Positions 2,646-14,406 are shown, numbered from the stretch's first letter. The stretch: 14,406 nt of DNA from a virus (IMGVR_UViG_2711768040_000007:1-14406); one strand, 5' to 3'. Made by a program: numbers and translations. Notes: a model not told the origin generated them from the letters alone.

Positions 2646-4478
2646 ATGGCCCGCATGTTTGATACATTAGGATTTTACATTATGAATGTGCAACATTTTG
2701 ATTTTTTTACAGATAATGAGTTTTCTAATCTGGAAAGATATCAAACTTGTAAAGCCATGGCCAAAGGTTATGCGGGCAATTACAAAACCGGGCAGTCAAG
2801 GTTGATGCATGCCCGCTCATACTGCTTCAGCATCGTAGCTGCATATTGGGATACCCTTGCAAAAAAGCAAAAAAGCAGCATTAAAATGAGGGCAGTACCG
2901 CACACTGTTTACATAGAAGACATTCCATGTGATGCACGCGAGCTCGCTGAACGAACAGGTGAGCTTATTGCTCAATTTCCGGCGGAGGACGCTGGATATC
3001 TGATTGGGTCAATTTATACGGTAATGCTGCCATCCGCTTACCGTTCGGAATTGGGGGCTTACTATACCCCCCCACCTTTGGTAGCGCGTCTCTTGGACCT
3101 GGCTGAAAAGTCTGGTGTTGATTTTTCTCATGCATCGGTTATTGATCCTGCGTGTGGTGGCGGTGCATTTTTGGCACCAGTAGCCATTCGAATGTTAAAA
3201 AAAGACAAGGGGTCTTCCCCTGAATGGATGTTGAGGAGAATCAGTCGTCGTTTAAAGGGGATAGAAATCGATCCATTTGCGGCTTGGATGAGTTTGGTAT
3301 TGCTCGAATCTGTACTAATGCCACTATGTGTAAAGGTAAAACGTAGATTGCCTGAAGATACAATTATTGTTGCTGATGCGCTTCAGCAAGATAAAATTTC
3401 TGGTTATGATCTTGTGGTAGGGAATCCGCCTTACGGACGTGTCACTCTCGATATTAAAACGAGAGAAAAATATTCTCGTTCGTTATTTGGTCATGCAAAT
3501 CTATATGGATTGTTCACCGACTTAGCTGTTCGCATGGTTAAAGAGAAAACAGGAGTTATTGCATTTCTTACGCCAACTTCTTTTCTTGGTGGGCAGTATT
3601 TCACCGCGCTGCGAACCCTTTTGACCGAAAAAACTACTCCGTATGCCCTTGATTTCGTCGCTGACAGGGATGGGGTCTTTGACGATGTTCTCCAGGAAAC
3701 AATGTTGACAGCATTCAAGGCGGGAGAACATAAAGTTCGGGCCCAGGTATCCTCACTTGTCCCTAAGGGGTTGAACAAAGCAAAAATTGAGAAAATAGGT
3801 AATGTTGATATAGAAAAAGGTGGAGCAACGTGGCTTTTGCCACGAGTTAAAGATGATGCTTGTTTTCTTAATGTATTAAAACAGATGTCTACGCGTTTAG
3901 CTGATCTGGGATACTCAGTCTCTACAGGTCAGTTAGTCTGGAATCGATTTAAGTCGCAGTTGCGTACGACGAAAGGAAAAAATAGCTATCCATTAGTCTG
4001 GGCGGAATCAATAACTTCAGCTGGTTTCCGTTTTAGCGCAGACAGAAAAAATCATGTTCCCTATATCGATATAACCCCACAACAGGGTTTCCTTGTGACA
4101 AAATCTGAATGTGTGCTTGTTCAGCGGACAACATCGAAGGAGCAGGACAGAAGGATTTTAGCTGCGATTTTACCTCAGGGATTTATAGATGAAACTGGTG
4201 GCGTAGTAGTTGAAAACCATATTAATATTGTGTATTCAAACGGATTGTTCTCTGCGGTTCGCCCTGATGTTATTGATATGCTACTTAATTCGCATGTTGT
4301 CGATCGGGCGTTCAGGTGTATAAGCGGAAGTGTTGCTGTTTCGGCCTATGAATTGAATTCAATCCCGTTGCCTTCTCTGGAGCAGGTGATGGAGATTCAA
4401 TCGTTAATTGATGCCGGCGTCCACAGACGGATTATTGAGAGAACTATCGCTGGTTTCTATGGAGTGATGATTGCATGA
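2646..4478 (+). CDS. Gamma-class N6-adenine DNA methyltransferase (Eco57I/PstI-like family)
   Basis: Motif order GAYYTPP (X), IDPACGGGAFL (I, AdoMet binding), VVGNPPYG (IV, catalytic NPPY), followed by a long C-terminal region consistent with a target-recognition domain. An alternative start at ATG 2682 has a better SD (AGGA about 9 nt upstream). Region is conspicuously AT-rich. Confidence 0.8.
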   Translation: MARMFDTLGFYIMNVQHFDFFTDNEFSNLERYQTCKAMAKGYAGNYKTGQSRLMHARSYCFSIVAAYWDTLAKKQKSSIKMRAVPHTVYIEDIPCDARELAERTGELIAQFPAEDAGYLIGSIYTVMLPSAYRSELGAYYTPPPLVARLLDLAEKSGVDFSHASVIDPACGGGAFLAPVAIRMLKKDKGSSPEWMLRRISRRLKGIEIDPFAAWMSLVLLESVLMPLCVKVKRRLPEDTIIVADALQQDKISGYDLVVGNPPYGRVTLDIKTREKYSRSLFGHANLYGLFTDLAVRMVKEKTGVIAFLTPTSFLGGQYFTALRTLLTEKTTPYALDFVADRDGVFDDVLQETMLTAFKAGEHKVRAQVSSLVPKGLNKAKIEKIGNVDIEKGGATWLLPRVKDDACFLNVLKQMSTRLADLGYSVSTGQLVWNRFKSQLRTTKGKNSYPLVWAESITSAGFRFSADRKNHVPYIDITPQQGFLVTKSECVLVQRTTSKEQDRRILAAILPQGFIDETGGVVVENHINIVYSNGLFSAVRPDVIDMLLNSHVVDRAFRCISGSVAVSAYELNSIPLPSLEQVMEIQSLIDAGVHRRIIERTIAGFYGVMIA

Positions 4479-5557
4479 ATCTGCCTGTTGTTCCCCCATT
4501 GAATGTTATCCGGGAAAGATTACCATTAATTTTCCCTGAAGGGACTGAGAATCGTGGATATTTAATTCGGGAAATAGCTGCAAAAACAATTTTTGTCATG
4601 TTTTATGCTGGTGCGGTTGAGGGGCTGGGGCGATGGATAAGGCCCAGCCAGGTTGTAAGTATGGGAGATTCACAGGCTGCTCTTACTGATGATGCGTCCA
4701 GAGAAAGTTGGGTAAAGATGACTTTCTCTAAACAAAAGATAAGGCCTGCTGATGCATGGTATGCGGAAAATACGCGTGAGCCAATACGTGATGAAACTAT
4801 AAAAAATGGCCTAATACCTTGCAATGCAATTGTTGAGCGTAAAGGTATACCCACCACATCCTCTCATCCTCGTTACAGTTTGAATCGCTCTTTTGCAGCA
4901 CTCTTTGATGCCGGGCTTGAAGGAGATTCGCTGCTGAGTGCAATAAGTTCCTGGCAGGAAAATCATTTGAACAAAGCCGCTCTTGCTAGATTGCGTTTAT
5001 TGAAATCAGGGGCAGTGATTGCTGCTGATGCCGTAGTCGTCACTTTCCCAAATGGAGAGAAGAGAACTTTAGCTCCGGGCCCGTCAAGTACAATAGCTAA
5101 GGCCGTCATCGAAGTTTTTGCTCCTAATTTTCTTAAGAATCCAACTGTGCTCTGGTTGTCTGAATCTGGGAATAAAGTTGTTGCTCAGGATGATGTATTG
5201 GCAAAAGCATTGGGGCTGAATATTGATGCCTCAAAAGCACTTCCAGATATTATTTTGATTGATTTGGGAGAGGACCGAACGGGTTCGGATATGCTTGTAG
5301 TTTTCACTGAGGTAGTTGCGACAGATGGGCCTATAAACAGGGAACGAAAAGTTACTCTCACTCATTTGGCTATTGACGCTGGGTTCAGCGAGAAAAATCT
5401 TGCATTCCTTACGGCATTTATTGACAGAAGTGCTCTGCCTTTTAAAAAGGCAATACCAGAATTGGCGTGGGGATCTTATGCATGGTTTGCTTCTGAACCG
5501 GAGCACTTAATTGATCTTCGGGATGGTTATCCGGTAAAGATCAGCCAGAGAAAATGA
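4475..5557 (+). CDS. Putative type II restriction endonuclease partner (possibly BsuBI/PstI-like)
   Basis: Start overlaps the methyltransferase stop (ATGA), implying translational coupling. Same AT-rich composition. PDIILIDLGED...FTEVV is loosely PD-(D/E)xK-like. Family assignment is from memory, not a search. Confidence 0.5.
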   Translation: MNLPVVPPLNVIRERLPLIFPEGTENRGYLIREIAAKTIFVMFYAGAVEGLGRWIRPSQVVSMGDSQAALTDDASRESWVKMTFSKQKIRPADAWYAENTREPIRDETIKNGLIPCNAIVERKGIPTTSSHPRYSLNRSFAALFDAGLEGDSLLSAISSWQENHLNKAALARLRLLKSGAVIAADAVVVTFPNGEKRTLAPGPSSTIAKAVIEVFAPNFLKNPTVLWLSESGNKVVAQDDVLAKALGLNIDASKALPDIILIDLGEDRTGSDMLVVFTEVVATDGPINRERKVTLTHLAIDAGFSEKNLAFLTAFIDRSALPFKKAIPELAWGSYAWFASEPEHLIDLRDGYPVKISQRK

Positions 5558-5909
5558 ACAAAGTTTGATATCCGCCACGCCCTGAAGGATGAGGGTTTTG
5601 CGGTGCACTGGATAAAAAATCGGTTTCATAGATTTGCCCACCGTGGTATACGCCTGCGATAAAAACTTTATTGTCATCAACGGCAAAAGCAATAATCGTT
5701 CTGTGGCGGAAATGAGTTACCCGCATCCCCTGGCGAATATCATCGCGTTTATTGCCCCGATGCGGGAATGTAGAAAACCCATCAAGATAATCAAGAAGTG
5801 CATTGGCATAATTGTCAGCAATGACGTTCCCTGCTTTCTCAGTTATATATCTGTGCAGGTTGATTATTTGTTGTTCGGCCTCAGGAGTAATGATGACTTC
5901 ATATGTCAT
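5541..5909 (-). CDS. ParE/RelE-family type II toxin with a C-terminal extension
   Basis: Length and sequence character fit ParE-like toxins. It starts 5 nt downstream of the antitoxin stop. Its 3' end overlaps the convergent endonuclease gene by 17 bp. Confidence 0.65.
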   Translation of the reverse strand: MTYEVIITPEAEQQIINLHRYITEKAGNVIADNYANALLDYLDGFSTFPHRGNKRDDIRQGMRVTHFRHRTIIAFAVDDNKVFIAGVYHGGQIYETDFLSSAPQNPHPSGRGGYQTLFIFSG

Positions 5910-5914
5910 GCAGA

Positions 5915-6172
5915 TTACTTCCCGGATCGAATCGCGGCGCGAACCTGTGAAATGGAGCGTCCGTTGTTTGGGTTTTCGCGGATAGAATCAAGAGAGGGGG
6001 CGGCTGAATGCGTTAACCATGCTTCGATTGCTTTATCGCGCTCATTCAGTGCGCGAAGCCCTTCACGAATGACCTCGCTTTCTGAAGCATAGGCACCGGA
6101 AGCCACACGGGCGCGCACCATGTCAGCCATCTCGTTAGTTAATGTAATGCTGAATTGTTGGGTTGTACGCAT
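5915..6172 (-). CDS. ParD-like ribbon-helix-helix antitoxin, 85 aa
   Basis: Internal ATG (MRTTQQFSITLTNEMADMVRARV...) preceded by GAGG. RHH-like N-terminus with SESEVIREGLRAL. The track's 5915..6235 version is an N-terminally extended TTG-start reading. Confidence 0.65.
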   Translation of the reverse strand: MRTTQQFSITLTNEMADMVRARVASGAYASESEVIREGLRALNERDKAIEAWLTHSAAPSLDSIRENPNNGRSISQVRAAIRSGK

Positions 6173-6307
6173 GGTAAACCTCACAGAGTAGGATAGAACA
6201 CTATTCGATGATAGCACGCTGCCTGTTGACGACAACAGAAATCAGAGACAATATTGCCGCACGCCAGCCTGAACAACTGGCACCTGCTGCGTCAGCAGAG
6301 AAAACTG
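6173..6307. promoter_or_regulatory. Divergent intergenic region with candidate promoters for parDE (- strand) and the downstream + strand genes
   Basis: Minus-strand TTGTCG, 16 nt, TATCAT upstream of parD, followed by the palindrome ATAG-tgtt-CTAT in its leader. Plus-strand TTGACG with an AT-rich -10-like element. Confidence 0.3.
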
Positions 6308-6587: not shown

Positions 6588-7652
6588 GTGCGGGTATTAC
6601 TTAGACCTGTTCTGGTGCCGGAACTCGGGCTGGTGGTCCTTAAGCCAGGTCGTGAATCCATGCAGGTATTTCACAATCCTCGAGTGCTCGTGGAGCCGGA
6701 ACCGAAAAGCATGTGCGGCCTGCCATCCGGAGTCGTCCCTGCCGTTCGCCAGCCGCTGGCGGAGGATAAATCATTACTGCCATTTTTCAGCGATGATCGG
6801 GTGATTCGTGCTGCTGGCGGCGCTGGGGCACTGTCTGACTGGCTGTTGCGTCATGTCAAATCCTGCCAGTGGCCTCATGGTGACTATCATCACAGTGAAA
6901 TCGTCATACATCGTTATGGTATCGGTGCGATGGTGTTGTGCTGGCACTGCGACAACCAGCTGCGTGACCAGACCTCCGAATCACTCGGGCAACTTGCTCA
7001 TCAAAACCTGTCAGCATGGATGATTGACGTCATACGCCATGCAGTGAATGGCACGCAGGAGCGGGAGTTATCGCTGGCTGAATTATCCTGGTGGGCAGTC
7101 TGCAATCAGGTAGCGGACGCACTGCCGGAGGCAGTATTACGTCGCTCTCTGGGGGTACGAGCAGAAAAAATCCGCTCAATATACCGCGAGAGCGACATCA
7201 TACCGGGAGAACAGACAGCCACCAGCATACTGAAGCAGCGCACAAAAAATATTGCGCTACCGCCTCACGTCCACCAGCACCAGCAACAGAACCCACCACA
7301 GGAAAAGACGGTGGTCAGCATTGCCGTTGATCCGGAATCTCCGGCTCAGTATCTCCAGCGCCAGAAACCACAACGGGAAGAGATGCCTGTATACACGCGC
7401 TGGGTAAAAACGCAGAAATGCATGACGTGTGGCAATCAGGCAGATGATCCGCATCACATCATTGGTCATGGACTGGGAGGGATGGGAACAAAGGCTGACG
7501 ATTTGTTTGTTATTCCGCTGTGTCGTAAATGCCATAACGAACTACACGCCGGGGTAAAAGATTTTGAAGAAAAACACGGTAGTCAGTTGTTGTTGCTGAT
7601 TCGTTTTTTAATGCACGCGAGAAATTCGGGTGTTCTGAAGTGGAAAGCATAA
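6588..7652 (+). CDS. DUF968 (YdfU-like) prophage protein with two HNH-like zinc-binding motifs
   Basis: GTG start 6 nt after GGAGG. CMTCGNQADDPHHIIGHG...PLCRKCHNELH near the C-terminus and HHSEIVIHRYG...CWHCDN earlier. Position just upstream of rusA and Q is typical. Confidence 0.6.
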   Translation: MRVLLRPVLVPELGLVVLKPGRESMQVFHNPRVLVEPEPKSMCGLPSGVVPAVRQPLAEDKSLLPFFSDDRVIRAAGGAGALSDWLLRHVKSCQWPHGDYHHSEIVIHRYGIGAMVLCWHCDNQLRDQTSESLGQLAHQNLSAWMIDVIRHAVNGTQERELSLAELSWWAVCNQVADALPEAVLRRSLGVRAEKIRSIYRESDIIPGEQTATSILKQRTKNIALPPHVHQHQQQNPPQEKTVVSIAVDPESPAQYLQRQKPQREEMPVYTRWVKTQKCMTCGNQADDPHHIIGHGLGGMGTKADDLFVIPLCRKCHNELHAGVKDFEEKHGSQLLLLIRFLMHARNSGVLKWKA

Positions 7653-10328: not shown

Positions 10329-10404
10329 GGCCCTTTAGCTCAGTGGTGAGAGCGAGCGACTCATAATCGCCAGGTCGCTGGTTCAAATCCAGCAAGGGCC
10401 ACCA
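10329..10404 (+). tRNA. ileZ: tRNA with CAU anticodon (Ile2/lysidine type or Met)
   Basis: Perfect 7-bp acceptor stem GGCCCTT/AAGGGCC, D-arm GCTC...GAGC, anticodon loop CUCAUAA, T-loop TTCAAAT, encoded CCA. Symbol is by analogy with the tRNA cluster of Stx phages. Confidence 0.8.
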
Positions 10405-10411
10405 TCACATA

Positions 10412-10488
10412 CCGCCATTAGCTCATCGGCAGAGAGCGTCAGCTTTCGAAACTGGCTGTGTGGAGCTCGGGTCCCCGATGGCAATCCA
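10412..10488 (+). tRNA. tRNA-like gene, apparent anticodon UCG (Arg), non-canonical and possibly degenerate
   Basis: Good D-arm and encoded CCA end, anticodon loop TTTCGAA, but two mismatches at the acceptor-stem end and an atypical T-loop (CTCGGGT). Confidence 0.45.
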
Positions 10489-10501
10489 TTATCTGCATTA
10501 T

Positions 10502-10578
10502 GCGTTGTTAGCTCAGCCGGACAGAGCAATTGCCTTCTAAGCAATCGGTCACTGGTTCGAATCCAGTACAACGCGCCA
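10502..10578 (+). tRNA. argO: tRNA-Arg, anticodon UCU
   Basis: Perfect acceptor stem GCGTTGT/ACAACGC, anticodon loop CTTCTAA, T-loop TTCGAAT, encoded CCA. Symbol by analogy with Stx-phage tRNA clusters. Confidence 0.8.
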
Positions 10579-10590
10579 CGCTTATTTTTC

Positions 10591-10616
10591 CAGGCTCGCT
10601 TCGGCGGGCCTTTTTC
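10591..10616 (+). terminator. Intrinsic terminator downstream of the tRNA cluster
   Basis: Stem GGCTCGC / GCGGGCC (one G.U pair) around a TTCG tetraloop, followed by TTTTT. Confidence 0.5.
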
Positions 10617-10753
10617 ATATCCGCGCCACGCCCGGCGCACATCAAAAAACCACAGAGCCTTTCAGGGGTGAGCTTACGGGATGGTCAGTGTGACTTTCTC
10701 TGTGGGCTGGTCACCCCCGGGCGCAGGCTCACCCACTAAAAGGAAAAGTCACG

Positions 10754-11179
10754 ATGTTTGGTATTTTCAAAAAGAAAACCCGCAAGGCCATTACCGAAGT
10801 GAAGAAGATGGAGAACCGCGATGCGGTGGAAGCGACTGTCTGGGGCGCATATTCCATTGCATACGCTGACGGTACCTGTGACGCAAAAGAAATTGCGGTG
10901 CTGGAAAAAACCATTGCAGCACTTCCGGCTTTTGCGCCGTTCTCGGGTGAGATTGCACAAATGAGTGCAAATATCCGCGCCCGTTATGAAGCGTCACCTC
11001 GTAGTGCGAATGCTCAGGCTTTGCGTGAACTGGCTGACGTGGCAGGAACCGCCGAAGCGGTTGATGTGCTGTGCCTGTGTCTTGATATTGCTGACCAGGA
11101 TGGCATTGGTCCGGATGAAGAAGCACAGCTCAAGAAAATTGCTCAGGCGCTGCAGTTGCCGCTGGAGCAGTACCTGTGA
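10754..11179 (+). CDS. TerB-like (tellurite-resistance TerB / DjlA N-terminal-like) protein, 141 aa
   Basis: ATG after AAAGGAAAAG. Acidic helical protein with paired ADG/D...E motifs typical of TerB-like domains. Confidence 0.55.
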   Translation: MFGIFKKKTRKAITEVKKMENRDAVEATVWGAYSIAYADGTCDAKEIAVLEKTIAALPAFAPFSGEIAQMSANIRARYEASPRSANAQALRELADVAGTAEAVDVLCLCLDIADQDGIGPDEEAQLKKIAQALQLPLEQYL

Positions 11180-11328
11180 AAAGTGCGCGCCTTGTGCTGG
11201 CTGCCATCCTGCTGTTTCTGGTAGTGGCGGTGGATTTTACCGGGCACCTGATGTCGATACTGGCAGATGGTGTACTGGTGGCCGGAGTGGTTGCACTGCT
11301 CTGGCCTTTACTGCGCAAATCTGAATAA
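11176..11328 (+). CDS. Small membrane protein, 50 aa, two hydrophobic segments; not in the ORF track because it is short
   Basis: GTG start overlapping the TerB-like stop (GTGA) with GGAG 8 nt upstream. Translation VKSARLVLAAILLFLVVAV...VLVAGVVALLWPLLRKSE. Confidence 0.35.
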   Translation: MKSARLVLAAILLFLVVAVDFTGHLMSILADGVLVAGVVALLWPLLRKSE

Positions 11329-11337
11329 CACCACACA

Positions 11338-11402
11338 AAAGGCATCTGCGGGTGCCTTTGACAGGGTGTTGTTTTTTACGGGCCGCTGGTGGCCCTTTTT
11401 TA
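11338..11402 (+). terminator. Tandem intrinsic terminators
   Basis: Hairpin AAAGGCA-8 nt-TGCCTTT followed by a T-run, then hairpin GGGCC-6 nt-GGCCC followed by TTTTTTATTT. Confidence 0.5.
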
Positions 11403-11419
11403 TTTACAGGAGAAAAGGT

Positions 11420-11809
11420 ATGTCTGAACCCTTATCCGGGACGGGTACGGCTGCGGCGCTTGGAGGGGCGACGGCATTCGGTGTGTTCACCGGTACGGAT
11501 TTTGGGATAGTGTTTGGCGCATTTGCCGGGGCGCTGTTTGTGGCCACGATGCCACAGGCGCTTTCAGCATGGAGGATTGCGGGCCATTTTGTGGTGTCTT
11601 TCATCATCGGCGTGCTGGGGGCAAAGGCGCTGGCGTCATATCTTGCAACGAAAACAGGTTATGACGGTGCCTCTGCTGAAGCATTGTGTGCGGTGCTGGT
11701 GTCGGTGTTGTCAGTGAAGATTCTCTCGTTTATCCATCAGCAGGATATCGGTTCGTTGATATCGGGCCTGTTTTCCCGGCTGCGTGGGGGAGGTGGCAAT
11801 GGCCGGTAA
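11420..11809 (+). CDS. Putative holin or membrane lysis protein, 129 aa
   Basis: ATG after ACAGGAGAAAAGG. Gly/Ala-rich hydrophobic segments. Position at the head of the lysis cassette. Confidence 0.5.
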   Translation: MSEPLSGTGTAAALGGATAFGVFTGTDFGIVFGAFAGALFVATMPQALSAWRIAGHFVVSFIIGVLGAKALASYLATKTGYDGASAEALCAVLVSVLSVKILSFIHQQDIGSLISGLFSRLRGGGGNGR

Positions 11810-12074
11810 TATTCCAGGACTGCTGAATGTGGCGCTATGTACAGTTATCGTGCTGGCGCTTTTTTTCTACCGCCGAAAAGATGCCACGCATAAACCGCTG
11901 GTGTCGTGGTTGGCCTGGCTGCTGATGCTTGTCTATGCGGTCGCGCCGCTCAGTTTTCTGTGCGGTCGTCCTCTTCCCGGTAACTGGGCGGTGGTGCTGG
12001 CTAATCTGTTGTTCTGTGTGCTGGTGGTATGGGCGCGCGGGAATGTGTCAAAAATCCTTTCATTACTGAGGTAA
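11799..12074 (+). CDS. Putative holin or antiholin, 91 aa, about three transmembrane segments
   Basis: Overlaps the upstream gene by 11 nt. Hydrophobic segments with a charged loop. Immediately precedes the endolysin. Confidence 0.45.
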   Translation: MAGNIPGLLNVALCTVIVLALFFYRRKDATHKPLVSWLAWLLMLVYAVAPLSFLCGRPLPGNWAVVLANLLFCVLVVWARGNVSKILSLLR

Positions 12075-12076
12075 GT

Positions 12077-12472
12077 ATGTCGGGAAAATTCATATTTAGT
12101 CGTCGCAGTGAAAAGAATCTGGAAGGCGTTAAGCCGCAACTGGTGGCGGTAGTGCGTCGCGCTCTGGAACTAACGGAAGTTGATTTTGGTATCACCGAAG
12201 GCCTTCGCAGTAAATACCGTCAGAAACAACTGGTCGCCGCAGGCAAAAGCCAGACGATGAACAGCCGGCACCTGACTGGTGAAGCGGTTGATGTATTACC
12301 GGTTGGTGCTGACTGGAATGATTACAAATGCTGGCTACCTGTATTGAGGGCATTTTACCAGGCTGGCAATGAGCTGGGCGTGAAACTTCGCTTTGGTATC
12401 ACCTGGACATCAAATCCTGATGATAAGCCAGCACGTTTTCTTGATGCTCCGCATATTGAACTGGGGTCGTGA
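12077..12472 (+). CDS. Endolysin, peptidase M15 family (L-alanyl-D-glutamate peptidase type)
   Basis: SRHLTGEAVDV zinc-binding motif. GAGG SD embedded in the end of the upstream gene. Confidence 0.8.
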   Translation: MSGKFIFSRRSEKNLEGVKPQLVAVVRRALELTEVDFGITEGLRSKYRQKQLVAAGKSQTMNSRHLTGEAVDVLPVGADWNDYKCWLPVLRAFYQAGNELGVKLRFGITWTSNPDDKPARFLDAPHIELGS

Positions 12473-12960
12473 TGAAAGATATTCCAGGTTTTGGTGGTAA
12501 ATATAAAATATCTGATTCTGGTGAGGTGGTTGGGCCATCAGGAAGGATTCTGAAACCCAGGCGTGATAAAGATGGATATTTGCGGCTCAATATGATGCAC
12601 CCTAAAAAAGGGCGAGACACCTACCTTATTCATCGCCTGGTAATGCTGACATATAGAGGGGAAACACCAGAGGGTTACTGCATTGATCATATAGACGGAA
12701 ATAAGAGAAATAATTATATAGGGAATCTCCGTTTTGCGCGCCCATGTCAAAATGCATGGAATTCCCGTCGACGCAAAGGTAGCTCAGGAGTGATTGGTGT
12801 GCACAAAAACAAAGGTAAATTCCAGGCCAGAATATCTGTCAACAAAAAAAGAATTTATCTTGGGCGGTTTAATTCTCCAGAGGTTGCTGCAGTTGCTCGT
12901 GATTCGGCTGCAAGGCTGTTTCATGGAGAGTTTGCTTTATGTAATTCTCCCACCGGTTGA
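12472..12960 (+). CDS. HNH homing endonuclease with NUMOD4-like N-terminus and AP2 DNA-binding domain
   Basis: IPGFGGKYKISDSGEV (NUMOD4-like), CIDHIDGNKRNN (HNH), GVIGVHKNKGKFQARISVNKKRIYLGRF...AA (AP2-like). Start overlaps the endolysin stop; GTG 12469 is an alternative start. Confidence 0.8.
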   Translation: MKDIPGFGGKYKISDSGEVVGPSGRILKPRRDKDGYLRLNMMHPKKGRDTYLIHRLVMLTYRGETPEGYCIDHIDGNKRNNYIGNLRFARPCQNAWNSRRRKGSSGVIGVHKNKGKFQARISVNKKRIYLGRFNSPEVAAVARDSAARLFHGEFALCNSPTG

Positions 12961-12964
12961 CGAT

Positions 12965-13147
12965 ATGAGTCGTAAACACTGGACACACAGAATGCCGCGA
13001 ACGGCGGCGAAATGGGTACTGGTAGCGATACTGGTGCCTTTTTTATTGGTGGGGTGCGTCAGCCTGGATAAGGCGCGCCAGCTTTTCGATACCGCGTCTC
13101 AGGTCTGTGAAATTGTCGACGGTGTTCGGCAGTGTCTGCAGAACTGA
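12965..13147 (+). CDS. Small lipoprotein, candidate outer-membrane spanin-like or moron lipoprotein
   Basis: Signal peptide KWVLVAILVPFLLVGC with lipobox LVGC. Mature part about 30 aa with two further Cys. Weak SD; ATG 12992 is an alternative start. Confidence 0.45.
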   Translation: MSRKHWTHRMPRTAAKWVLVAILVPFLLVGCVSLDKARQLFDTASQVCEIVDGVRQCLQN

Positions 13148-13321
13148 TCGCCTGTAAGAGCAGAATATTTTGCTGAAAAAAGAAGGATGCGTCAGCGTCC
13201 GGTAAGCATGAAATTCTGTGTTTGTGGCTACTCAATAAAATAAATTCTTTCTGTCTCCGCGAATACTCAAATGTTGATCAGCGCCCGGGGCGGTGACGGG
13301 CTTCGATATCAGGAGAAGATA

Positions 13322-13714
13322 ATGGCAAAGAAAGAAGACAAACCAATGGTAATTGGTGCTGTGGCTGTTCCGTTTAAGTTTGAACTGTCACAACTGGTGG
13401 AGATGCGCATCAGTGATGAATGGGGTGAGGTTAAAGCTCGCGCGCAGTATGTGGATGGCGAAAACCAGTACTTGATCCACTACAAGGCTGCTGATGGTCG
13501 CGCCACAACGGCGTGGTTTGGTGAGTCAATGCTGGAAGCAACAGAAGATGATCGCCATCCGGGCTGTCCGGTATTTGCCGGTATGAAATTACCGGAAGGT
13601 GCAGTTGAACTGCAGCCGGGTGAGGTGTTCGTAATGACAGACATCATTGATGGTAATCCGCAGTATTCTCGTATTGAAATGAATAGTAAGAGTGCTCGCC
13701 TGATTCGTGAGTAA
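13322..13714 (+). CDS. Hypothetical protein, 130 aa
   Basis: ATG after CAGGAGAAG. No recognisable motifs. Sits between the lysis cassette and cos, where lambda carries accessory genes such as bor. Confidence 0.5.
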   Translation: MAKKEDKPMVIGAVAVPFKFELSQLVEMRISDEWGEVKARAQYVDGENQYLIHYKAADGRATTAWFGESMLEATEDDRHPGCPVFAGMKLPEGAVELQPGEVFVMTDIIDGNPQYSRIEMNSKSARLIRE

Positions 13715-13718
13715 CAGG

Positions 13719-13757
13719 CATTACAGCAGCCCTTCACTCTAAGGGGGTGCTGTAATG
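13719..13757. other. Extended imperfect hairpin (10-bp outer stem plus 5-bp inner stem) just after the stop of the preceding gene
   Basis: CATTACAGCA pairs with TGCTGTAATG; inner CCCTT pairs with AAGGG. No T-run follows on either strand. Confidence 0.4.
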
Positions 13758-14110
13758 TGAGAAATAAAAAATCGGTCACAGGGAGCAGCTACACAGAACC
13801 GGCCGGCGAAGACCGCCAATACCACCCATGCATTGATGCAACATACTAATGACAATAGCCGCTATTGATGTAAATGCAATGTTATGCATCGACGAAAATA
13901 AAAAACCGGCAGGGGAAATCCATTGAAGATTTGCCGGTGGCAAAAGAGGGCCATGTTTTTAACCTTAGTCGCAGAGTTACGGAGTGCAACTACGAATGCT
14001 GCCGGTATATGGCTGAATGGCGTTTCAATGATGTACGTCATCTTATCTGTAAATGTTAATGACAAACGCTCTCATTTGTGCGGGTCCTTCCGGTGGGGTG
14101 GCCTGCCACG

Positions 14111-14122
14111 GGGCGGCGACCT
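14111..14122. other. cosN, the lambda-type 12-nt cohesive-end sequence GGGCGGCGACCT
   Basis: Exact match to the lambda cohesive end as I remember it, with lambda-like flanks (GGGTCCTT..CCGGTG upstream). Confidence 0.75.
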
Positions 14123-14290
14123 CTCGGGTTTTCGCTATTTATGAAAATTTTCCGGTTTAAGGCGTTTCCGTTCTTCTTCGTCGTAACTTAATGTTTTTAT
14201 TTAAAACACCCCCTGAAAAGAAAGGAAACGACAGGTGCTGAAAACGGGCTTTTTGGCCTCTGTCGTTTCCTTTCTCTGTTTTTGTCCGTG
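14123..14290. promoter_or_regulatory. cosB-like terminase-binding region (R3, an AT-rich IHF-like segment, R2, R1)
   Basis: CGTTTCCGTTCTTCTTCG, AT-rich AACTTAATGTTTTTATTTAAAA, AAAGGAAACGACAG and its inverted copy CTGTCGTTTCCTTTCTCTG, arranged as in lambda. Confidence 0.6.
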
Positions 14291-14299
14291 GAATGAACA

Positions 14300-14406
14300 A
14301 TGGAAGTCAACAAAAAGCAGCTGGCTGACATTTTCGGCGCGAGTATCCGTACCATTCAGAACTGGCAGGAGCAGGGAATGCCCGTTCTGCGGGGTGGTGG
14401 GAAGGG
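14300..14406 (+). CDS. nu1: Terminase small subunit Nu1, N-terminal part (3' end outside the window)
   Basis: Translation MEVNKKQLADIFGASIRTIQNWQEQGMPVLRGGGKG matches the N-terminus of lambda Nu1 as I recall it. Positioned just after cosB. Confidence 0.85.
   Translation, partial: MEVNKKQLADIFGASIRTIQNWQEQGMPVLRGGGK

What the first reader, a model, noticed from the sequence alone, without database searches (positions are those of the whole stretch)
12472..12960. HNH-AP2 homing endonuclease inserted into the lysis cassette where a spanin gene is expected
Clear NUMOD4-like, HNH and AP2 motifs, start overlapping the endolysin stop. No i-spanin-like gene (N-terminal transmembrane segment plus periplasmic coiled coil) is recognisable in the cassette. 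The intron-less homing endonuclease may have displaced or disrupted it, and is itself a mobile element that could drive exchange of the flanking lysis genes.
Basis: partly seen in the sequence, partly recalled or inferred. Interest (0 to 1): 0.5.

Follow-up and report, generated by a model that had tools for sequence, protein, structure and literature searches.

The report
Homing endonuclease gene beside phage endolysin
A selfish HNH homing-endonuclease gene sits between the endolysin gene and the last lysis gene of an E. coli-type prophage; it arrived with a foreign 3' part of the endolysin gene and did not knock out a spanin, so it is a clear but ordinary example of a known kind of mobile element.

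Summary
The ORF is real: ATG 12472 to TGA 12960, 162 aa, start overlapping the endolysin stop (TGATG). It has NUMOD4 and HNH_3 domains above Pfam thresholds. Its C-terminal AP2 domain is below Pfam's threshold but is confirmed against PDB sequences and by a predicted fold. The closest solved structure is I-HmuI.

It is a free-standing homing endonuclease gene, but it did not displace a spanin. Sister cassettes without the HNH gene (E. coli SE11 and 36 of 50 viral contigs with this endolysin type) start a 60-aa lipoprotein gene 14 nt after the endolysin stop. None has an i-spanin. In the window that lipoprotein gene is intact, 4 nt after the HNH stop. Its phiP27 homolog has been published as an o-spanin.

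What was replaced is the 3' 40% of the endolysin gene. Window 12296-12963 (Serratia/Yersinia-type endolysin C-half plus HNH, low GC) is about 99.4% identical in three prophages whose flanks are about 80% (left) and 92-96% (right) identical. The closest HNH relatives (58-65%) all lie between an endolysin gene and an intact i-spanin gene.

Verdict: a new member of a known kind, of modest interest. The lipoprotein-only, i-spanin-less cassette is the more intriguing side issue.

The parts
11420..11809 (+). Holin, first gene of the lysis cassette
   Evidence: Pfam Phage_holin_8 E 2.9e-22; phrog_198 holin E 1e-39.
11799..12074 (+). Second holin-family membrane protein
   Evidence: Pfam Phage_holin_3_7 E 3.3e-18; phrog_217 holin.
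12077..12472 (+). Chimeric M15 endolysin (L-alanyl-D-glutamate peptidase type), 131 aa
   Evidence: phrog_465 endolysin E 1e-56. PDB T5 endolysin 2MXZ E 1e-25. The N-half (residues 1-73) is 93-95% identical to the E. coli/phiP27 type. The C-half (74-131) is 79% identical to the Serratia/Yersinia type and only 29% to the E. coli type. The H65/D72 and D123/H126 motifs are retained (read from the sequence).
12296..12963 (+). Imported mobile block: foreign 3' part of the endolysin gene plus the HNH gene. It replaces about 170 nt of the HNH-less allele.
   Evidence: About 99.4% identical (4 SNPs each) to E. coli PSJ-22 and metagenome contig L011. The left flank is about 80% identical and the right flank 92-96%. 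The last upstream difference is at 12289. Homology to HNH-less SE11 ends after the codons SRHLTG-AVDV and resumes at 12964. GC is 0.41-0.44 against 0.52-0.57 in the flanks.
12472..12960 (+). Free-standing HNH homing endonuclease gene (NUMOD4 - HNH - AP2), 162 aa
   Evidence: Pfam hits. I-HmuI by sequence, E 1.9e-16, and by fold, E 2.8e-8. AP2 fold match at rmsd 1.0-1.5 A. The HNH-clade invariant residues D72, H73, N85 and N94 are present.
12965..13147 (+). 60-aa outer-membrane-type lipoprotein, last gene of the cassette; homolog of the published phiP27 'o-spanin'
   Evidence: Lipobox LLVG|C with Val at +2 (sequence). phrog_7528, unknown function, E 1.7e-38. C31, C48 and C57 are invariant in homologs. 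It follows holin8 > holin3_7 > endolysin in 67 of 67 IMG/VR loci. Its phiP27 homolog is listed as a separated o-spanin at 20706-20861.

Best explanation
Window 12472-12960 encodes an intact I-HmuI-like HNH endonuclease. It has an N-terminal NUMOD4 DNA-binding module, an HNH beta-beta-alpha-metal core and a C-terminal AP2 DNA-binding domain. It is a free-standing homing endonuclease gene wedged between the endolysin gene and the terminal lipoprotein gene of a phiP27-type lysis cassette (holin, holin, M15 endolysin, lipoprotein).

Shown: the gene came in as a roughly 670-nt block (12296-12963) that also carries a foreign, Serratia/Yersinia-type 3' 40% of the endolysin gene. This block replaced the resident 3' part of the endolysin gene plus a 14-nt spacer and produced a chimeric endolysin that keeps its catalytic motifs. 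No spanin gene was lost, because the empty-site allele has none.

Inferred: the enzyme is made late, translationally coupled to the endolysin through the TGATG overlap. When an HNH-carrying and an HNH-less cassette meet in one cell, it nicks or cuts the HNH-less allele within or next to the segment that is replaced in its own genome, which makes its own genome immune. Repair from the HNH-carrying copy then transfers the block. The crossovers fall in the last stretch of shared sequence (the codons for the Zn-binding H-x6-D motif) and at the start of the lipoprotein gene.
For: Domains and fold.

Sporadic presence: this HNH occurs in 1 of 5426 complete E. coli genomes, whereas sequence from the lipoprotein gene and its downstream flank matches in 397 genomes. 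It occurs in 0 of 67 IMG/VR lipoprotein cassettes.

Empty site: in SE11 and in 36 of 50 loci the lipoprotein gene starts 14 nt after the endolysin stop.

Identity block: 12290-12950 is about 100% identical to PSJ-22 and L011, against about 80% upstream and 92-96% downstream. PSJ-22 and L011 share the cassette but have different neighbouring modules.

Other evidence: chimeric endolysin and a low-GC block. The closest relatives (58-65% identity) all lie between an endolysin gene and an i-spanin gene, in cassettes with two different endolysin families. The matched pair L009 (with HNH) and L099 (without) shows a clean presence/absence difference, with an altered 5' end of the i-spanin gene. In L010 the HNH ORF ends with NDWKTLKDGPHFQL. 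This comes from 38 nt that match the 3' end of the E. coli-type endolysin gene at 32 of 38 positions, a fossil of an earlier landing inside such a gene. No intron was found. HEGs at the boundaries of exchanged segments, and co-conversion of their flanks, are established phenomena (PMC10448857 and PMC2790892, abstracts seen).
Against: No cleavage site or enzyme activity is known, so homing is inferred from comparative patterns only. Only two independent cassette backgrounds carry the identical block (the window, and PSJ-22/L011). Block edges that coincide with the edges of the heterology would also arise from ordinary homologous recombination. The element is very rare: 1 of 5426 E. coli genomes, and none of 185,579 GTDB representative genomes. 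That does not look like an efficient drive. The original donor of the block is not in any database searched; the best match to the endolysin C-half is 72% at the DNA level and 79% at the protein level.
Confidence: 0.78

Rival explanations
1. One reading: the HNH gene inserted into or displaced an i-spanin gene, leaving the cassette without a spanin.
For: No i-spanin-like ORF exists in the window. A sister cassette in E. coli KFu019, with the same two holins and the standard M15 endolysin, does carry embedded Rz/Rz1.
Against: HNH-less cassettes of the same type go directly from endolysin to lipoprotein, with a 14-nt spacer and no i-spanin. None of 67 lipoprotein-type loci has Rz/Rz1. No Rz remnant is visible in 12296-12963; homology to SE11 stops inside the endolysin gene and resumes at the lipoprotein start. 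Relatives of the HNH leave the adjacent i-spanins intact.
Confidence: 0.04
2. The HNH gene is passive cargo, inactive or irrelevant. The shared block reflects ordinary mosaic recombination between lambdoid prophages rather than endonuclease-driven homing.
For: Lambdoid prophages are highly mosaic; the window matches thousands of E. coli records piecewise. Crossovers next to a heterologous segment are expected for any homologous exchange. The element is rare.
Against: The ORF is intact, with all HNH-clade invariant residues. Both block edges abut the heterology within about 7 nt on the left and about 25 nt on the right. An entire clade of relatives occupies the same endolysin/spanin junction across unrelated cassettes, and one carries an endolysin fossil.
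Confidence: 0.13
3. The HNH is a domesticated phage function, for example a packaging-associated HNH or a weapon against competing prophages, rather than a purely selfish element.
For: HNH proteins next to terminase genes are required for cos cleavage in HK97/phiP27-type phages (established knowledge). Such a gene lies downstream in phiP27 and L011.
Against: The packaging HNHs belong to a different family (PF01844/HNH_5) and are separately present in L011. The window phage has a lambda Nu1-type small terminase starting at 14300, read from the sequence. The NUMOD4-HNH_3-AP2 architecture and the I-HmuI similarity are typical of homing enzymes. Nearly all sister phages lack the gene.
Confidence: 0.05

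Closest known systems
I-HmuI (Bacillus phage SPO1 intron-encoded HNH homing endonuclease, PDB 1U3E)
   Same: Best solved-structure match by sequence (E 1.9e-16, residues 2-103) and by fold (E 2.8e-8). It shares the N-terminal beta-strand DNA-binding module and the HNH core, with the D-H and Asn residues aligned.
   Different: I-HmuI is encoded inside a group I intron and has a C-terminal helix-turn-helix domain. Here there is no intron, and the C-terminal domain is AP2-like.
Free-standing phage homing endonucleases such as T4 MobE and the Seg proteins, and the HEGs at recombination boundaries in ICP1-type phages (PMC2790892, PMC10448857)
   Same: An intergenic, sporadically present nuclease gene. 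The flanking host-gene sequence travels with it (co-conversion). It sits at the edge of an identity block between related phages.
   Different: Those cases are in virulent phages and have experimentally mapped cleavage sites. This one is in temperate lambdoid prophages, has no mapped site, and carries a highly divergent half-gene rather than a few co-converted SNPs.
AP2-domain HNH endonucleases of phages and cyanobacteria (recalled from the literature on the origin of plant AP2/ERF factors; not checked here)
   Same: The same HNH plus AP2 domain combination.
   Different: No specific relationship was tested beyond the PDB AP2 matches.
phiP27 'separated two-component spanin' (Kongari et al. 2018, PMC6139136)
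   Same: The gene just downstream of the HNH (12965-13147) is the homolog of the phiP27 o-spanin call (20706-20861). It has the same lipobox and the same 30-aa mature part.
   Different: The phiP27 i-spanin call is a 64-aa TTG ORF at 20348-20542. It lies antisense to a 90-aa ORF that has its own PHROG family. That region is present in only 3 of 67 related loci and is absent from the window and from SE11.

Membership tests
HNH homing endonuclease, I-HmuI-like (Pfam HNH_3 + NUMOD4) | HNH beta-beta-alpha-metal core with the catalytic His and the metal-binding Asn | tested here: met
   HNH_3 scores 46 bits against a cut-off of 24.8. D72, H73, N85 and N94 are invariant across the clade and align to the I-HmuI DH and N residues. 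Foldseek top hit is 1U3E.
HNH homing endonuclease, I-HmuI-like (Pfam HNH_3 + NUMOD4) | N-terminal NUMOD4-type DNA-binding module | tested here: met
   NUMOD4 scores 32.4 bits against a cut-off of 23.4.
   Pfam AP2 is below threshold at 14.6 bits against 33.3. However, phmmer against PDB gives WRI1 at E 3.4e-7 and TEM1 at 7e-4, and the predicted fold superposes on 1GCC/7ET4 at 1.0-1.5 A with 37-42% identity.
Homing endonuclease gene (as a mobile element) | Presence/absence polymorphism at one site among close relatives, with a definable empty site | tested here: met
   Present in the window, PSJ-22 and L011. Absent from SE11, phiP27 and 67 IMG/VR loci. L009 (with HNH) and L099 (without) form a matched pair.
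Homing endonuclease gene (as a mobile element) | Transfer together with flanking sequence (co-conversion), seen as an identity block | tested here: inconclusive
   A block of about 99.4% identity against flanks of 80-96%, plus a chimeric endolysin. The pattern fits, but ordinary recombination is not excluded.
Homing endonuclease gene (as a mobile element) | Site-specific cleavage of the allele that lacks the gene | not testable with these tools
   Needs a biochemical assay or a genetic cross.
Intron-encoded homing endonuclease | ORF embedded in a group I or group II intron | tested here: not met
   No Rfam intron family is hit anywhere in the window. The ORF abuts both neighbouring genes. It is therefore free-standing.
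Two-component spanin (Rz/Rz1 type) | i-spanin: an N-terminal transmembrane segment plus a periplasmic helical or coiled-coil domain, encoded in the lysis cassette | tested here: not met
   No such ORF in the whole window. No Phage_lysis, DUF2570 or DUF2514 hit.
Two-component spanin (Rz/Rz1 type) | o-spanin: a small outer-membrane lipoprotein encoded in the lysis cassette | tested here: met
   12965-13147 has the lipobox LLVG|C, Val at +2 and a 30-aa mature part (sequence). It is the homolog of the phiP27 o-spanin call. There is no Pfam Rz1 or LysC similarity, even at E 10.
Unimolecular spanin (T1 gp11 type) | An N-terminal lipobox and a C-terminal transmembrane anchor in one protein | tested here: not met
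   The lipobox is present, but the mature 30 residues contain no hydrophobic segment (sequence; alignment).
M15 L-alanyl-D-glutamate peptidase endolysin (T5 type) | Zn-binding H-x6-D and D-x-x-H motifs within an M15 fold | tested here: met
   PDB 2MXZ E 1e-25, 8Q2G E 3.7e-28. H65/D72 and D123/H126 are present in the chimera (sequence).

The most novel reading that the evidence does not exclude
The phiP27-type lysis cassette (Phage_holin_8, Phage_holin_3_7, endolysin, 60-aa lipoprotein) has no i-spanin at all. On this reading the small helical, two-cysteine outer-membrane lipoprotein at 12965-13147 disrupts the outer membrane alone or with a host partner. That would be a third route, besides spanins and the phiKT-type cationic peptide. 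The published phiP27 'two-component spanin', the shortest on record at 62 periplasmic residues, would then be a mis-call. The HNH element simply homes to the junction in front of this gene.
Probability: 0.25. Interest if true: 0.65.

Novelty: new member of a known kind. Interest (0 to 1): 0.3.

Why it matters
The locus is a tidy natural example of how a homing endonuclease gene reshuffles essential phage genes. It created a working hybrid endolysin from two lineages whose C-terminal halves are only about 29% identical, and it marks a recombination hotspot at the endolysin/spanin junction of temperate enterobacterial phages. Practically, it warns annotators that an HNH gene in a lysis cassette does not mean a lost spanin. 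The comparison also shows that a common E. coli prophage lysis cassette, the phiP27 type that includes Stx2e phages, lacks any conserved i-spanin. That makes the 60-aa lipoprotein a concrete candidate for experiments on spanin-independent outer-membrane disruption.

Tried and rejected
- A scan of GTDB representative genomes for the HNH clade found no relative.
- IMG/VR returned only the contig already known as L009.
- The plasmid collection gave only a 72% match to the endolysin part. The donor lineage of the block therefore remains unknown.
- NCBIfam gave nothing useful for the HNH, the lipoprotein or the downstream ORF.
- Pfam at E up to 10 shows no Rz1, LysC or colicin-lysis-protein similarity for the lipoprotein. 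A bacteriocin-release-protein-like identity, considered because of the similar size, has no sequence support.
- An exhaustive profile search with the lipoprotein found only 23 clusters. The alignable ones inspected are short lipoproteins, and the few long hits match only part of the profile, so there is no link to larger spanins.
- Rfam found no intron.
- The promoter scan found no sigma-70-like site in 10600-14406. The terminator-like hits inside the cassette lie within coding sequence and were not pursued.
- Literature searches for 'spanin' plus 'P27', and for an HNH in lysis cassettes, gave nothing specific apart from Kongari et al. 2018.
- The more distant HNH homolog in phage Kapi1 (37% identity) lies at a different genomic site. 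Site fidelity therefore holds only for the close clade.
- A packaging-HNH role was considered and rejected, because that is a different family and the window phage has a Nu1-type terminase.

Full report
OBSERVATION. It runs from ATG 12472 (an in-frame GTG lies at 12469) to TGA 12958-12960 and encodes 162 aa. The endolysin stop codon (12470-12472) and the HNH start share one base (TGATG). Pfam places HNH_3 (46 bits, cut-off 24.8) and NUMOD4 (32.4 bits, cut-off 23.4) on it. AP2 reaches only 14.6 bits against a cut-off of 33.3, so on Pfam alone that part of the claim would be weak.

Three other results confirm the AP2 domain. A phmmer search of PDB sequences gives I-HmuI at E 1.9e-16 for residues 2-103, and plant AP2 domains (WRI1 3.4e-7, TEM1 7e-4, ERF1 5e-3) for residues 102-160. 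An AlphaFold2 model built on 17 homologs is confident (mean pLDDT 89). Foldseek then returns I-HmuI (1U3E) first, followed by AP2/ERF domains that superpose on the C-terminal strand-strand-strand-helix unit at 1.0-1.5 A. The D-H, N and N residues that are invariant in the clade are present. Rfam finds no intron, so the gene is free-standing.

CONTEXT. The window is the late region of a mosaic lambdoid prophage of the E. coli kind. Its gene order is as follows:
- Ead/Ea22
- a methyltransferase plus a BsuBI/PstI-type restriction pair
- ParDE
- DUF968, RusA and Q
- a DNA methylase
- three tRNA genes
- TerB and DUF3927
- the lysis cassette
- a Nu1-type small terminase starting at 14300

The lysis cassette consists of Phage_holin_8 (11420-11809), Phage_holin_3_7 (11799-12074), an M15 endolysin (12077-12472), the HNH gene, and a 60-aa protein (12965-13147) with a lipoprotein signal peptide (…FLLVG|C, Val at +2). 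The endolysin is related to the T5 L-Ala-D-Glu peptidase (2MXZ, E 1e-25).

DID IT DISPLACE A SPANIN? No. The HNH-less counterpart of this cassette is common.
- Sequence from the lipoprotein gene and its downstream flank matches in 397 of 5426 complete E. coli genomes.
- In 67 of 67 IMG/VR loci with enough upstream sequence, the lipoprotein gene follows holin8 > holin3_7 > endolysin (standard M15 or GH108), with zero to two tiny membrane ORFs in between. None of these loci has Rz/Rz1 or this HNH.
- In E. coli SE11, and in 36 of 50 loci with the M15 endolysin, the lipoprotein start lies 14 nt after the endolysin stop. That is the empty site, and it contains no i-spanin.
- A hydropathy scan of every ORF in the window found no protein with a single N-terminal TMD followed by at least 40 residues, apart from out-of-frame or antisense shadows.

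That absence is a trait of the cassette lineage, not a consequence of the insertion.

WHAT WAS REPLACED. Alignment with SE11, ETEC-2264, phiP27 and PSJ-22 shows that homology to HNH-less cassettes runs through the endolysin codons …NSRHLTG(D/E)AVDV and stops at about 12295. It resumes at 12964, one base before the lipoprotein ATG. The 668 nt in between replace about 170 nt of the empty-site allele. They encode a different endolysin C-terminal half plus the HNH.

The resulting endolysin is a chimera. Residues 1-73 are 93-95% identical to the E. coli/phiP27 type. Residues 74-131 are 79% identical to the 130-132-aa type of Serratia/Yersinia prophages and only 29% identical to the E. coli type. 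Both metal-binding and catalytic motifs survive (H65/D72 before the junction, D123/H126 after it). The block has 41-44% GC against 52-57% in the flanks.

EVIDENCE FOR RECENT MOBILITY. The only complete E. coli genome with this HNH is PSJ-22. A metagenomic contig (L011) is a third carrier. Against both, the window is about 100% identical from about 12290 to about 12950, with four SNPs each. It is only about 80% identical over the holins and the endolysin 5' half, and 92-96% over the lipoprotein gene. The last upstream difference is at 12289, 6-7 nt before the heterology begins. PSJ-22 and L011 share the whole cassette but have different Q-region and packaging modules. The same block therefore sits in at least two diverged cassette backgrounds and three prophage contexts.

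THE HNH CLADE. Only three further relatives above 50% identity exist in the 5.8-billion-protein collection, and none in the 185,579 GTDB representative genomes. All three lie between an endolysin gene and an i-spanin gene, with overlapping start and stop codons and an intact o-spanin:
- L007: after a Phage_lysozyme endolysin and before DUF2570.
- L008/L009: after a Serratia/Yersinia-type M15 endolysin and before DUF2570.
- L010: after the same M15 type and before DUF2514.

HNH-less Serratia and Yersinia cassettes have the i-spanin start overlapping the endolysin stop. Aligning L009 with Y. pseudotuberculosis L099 shows a clean presence/absence difference, in which the first ~115 nt of the i-spanin gene are also replaced. 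In L010 the HNH ORF ends with …NDWKTLKDGPHFQL. This is encoded by 38 nt that match the 3' end of the E. coli-type endolysin gene at 32 of 38 positions. It is a fossil showing that an ancestor of the clade landed inside such a gene. A more distant homolog (Kapi1, 37% identity) sits elsewhere in its genome.

MECHANISM (inferred). The enzyme is probably produced late, coupled to the endolysin. It probably nicks or cuts HNH-less cassettes in or next to the segment that is replaced in its own genome. Repair from the HNH-carrying copy would then import the block. The crossovers would fall in the last conserved stretch, the codons of the H-x6-D Zn-binding motif, and at the start of the lipoprotein gene.

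This matches what is known for free-standing phage HEGs: mobilisation of the gene together with flanking DNA (PMC2790892) and nuclease genes at the boundaries of genetic exchange (PMC10448857), both seen. There are caveats. No cleavage site is known. Only two independent backgrounds were found. Junctions at the edges of a heterology can also arise from ordinary recombination. The element is very rare.

THE SPANIN QUESTION. Kongari et al. 2018 list phiP27 as having a 'separated' two-component spanin, the shortest in their survey at 62 periplasmic residues. Their o-spanin (20706-20861) is the homolog of window 12965-13147.

Their i-spanin (20348-20542) is a 64-aa TTG ORF. It lies antisense to a 90-aa ORF that has its own PHROG family, while the 64-aa ORF has none. 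That region occurs in 3 of 67 related loci and is absent from the window and from SE11. In KFu019 the same holins and endolysin are followed by canonical embedded Rz/Rz1 in place of the lipoprotein. The two are therefore positional alternatives.

The lipoprotein family is small (23 clusters at 50% identity). The members examined in detail are short (51-71 aa), with an invariant lipobox and two conserved cysteines in a predicted helical 30-aa mature part. It shows no similarity to the Rz1, LysC or colicin lysis protein families. Whether it acts alone is an open and testable question.

VERDICT. It is a new member of a known kind, and interest is modest at 0.3. The i-spanin-less lipoprotein cassette is the most novel reading left open.

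Noticed in passing
window 12965-13147: A 60-aa lipoprotein (lipobox LLVG|C; invariant C31, C48, C57; strongly conserved N-terminal MxRKHWTHRxPR). It is the constant last gene of holin8/holin3_7/endolysin cassettes and has no conserved i-spanin partner. Its phiP27 homolog is published as an o-spanin, but it may be a stand-alone outer-membrane disruptor.
   Followed up: partly
L001 (phiP27) 3158-3352 (+) versus 3142-3414 (-): The published phiP27 i-spanin call is a 64-aa TTG ORF with no PHROG family. It lies antisense to a 90-aa ORF that matches phrog_36812 (E 5e-20). The region is present in only 3 of 67 related loci, so the i-spanin call looks doubtful.
   Followed up: partly
L010 902-940 (3' end of the HNH ORF): The HNH ORF is fused in frame to 13 codons (DWKTLKDGPHFQL) of an E. 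coli-type M15 endolysin C-terminus. L009 keeps a shortened version of the tail (THFQLSHKEYQS). This is a molecular fossil of an earlier insertion into an endolysin gene.
   Followed up: yes
L003 4196-4309; L004 2889-3002; L006 2665-2847 and 2865-2999: In many sister cassettes, tiny C-terminally anchored membrane ORFs (37-60 aa, phrog_4493/1115; 44 aa, phrog_4906) lie between the endolysin gene and the lipoprotein gene or Rz/Rz1. They are absent from the window, and their function is unknown.
   Followed up: partly
window 2646-5557: A restriction-modification pair inside the prophage: a 610-aa Eco57I/N6_Mtase-type methyltransferase and a 360-aa BsuBI/PstI-family restriction endonuclease.
   Followed up: partly
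window 5541-6235 (- strand): A ParE toxin / ParD antitoxin pair on the opposite strand, next to the R-M genes.
   Followed up: partly
window 6588-7652: The DUF968 protein carries a C-terminal HNHc_6-type nuclease motif. This is a second, unrelated HNH-like protein in the window.
   Followed up: no
window 10329-10578: Three tRNA genes (Met-CAT, Arg-TCG, Arg-TCT) lie between the DNA methylase gene and the TerB/DUF3927 genes, upstream of the lysis cassette. Rfam calls only two of them.
   Followed up: no
window 10754-11328: TerB-like (141 aa) and DUF3927/TciB-like (50 aa) moron genes lie directly upstream of the holin. They are conserved in PSJ-22, SE11 and STEC313.
   Followed up: no
window 12958-12967: The insertion removed the native Shine-Dalgarno sequence of the lipoprotein gene (AGGTG in SE11). 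The gene now starts 4 nt after the HNH stop with only a weak GG upstream, so its expression may depend on coupling to HNH translation.
   Followed up: no
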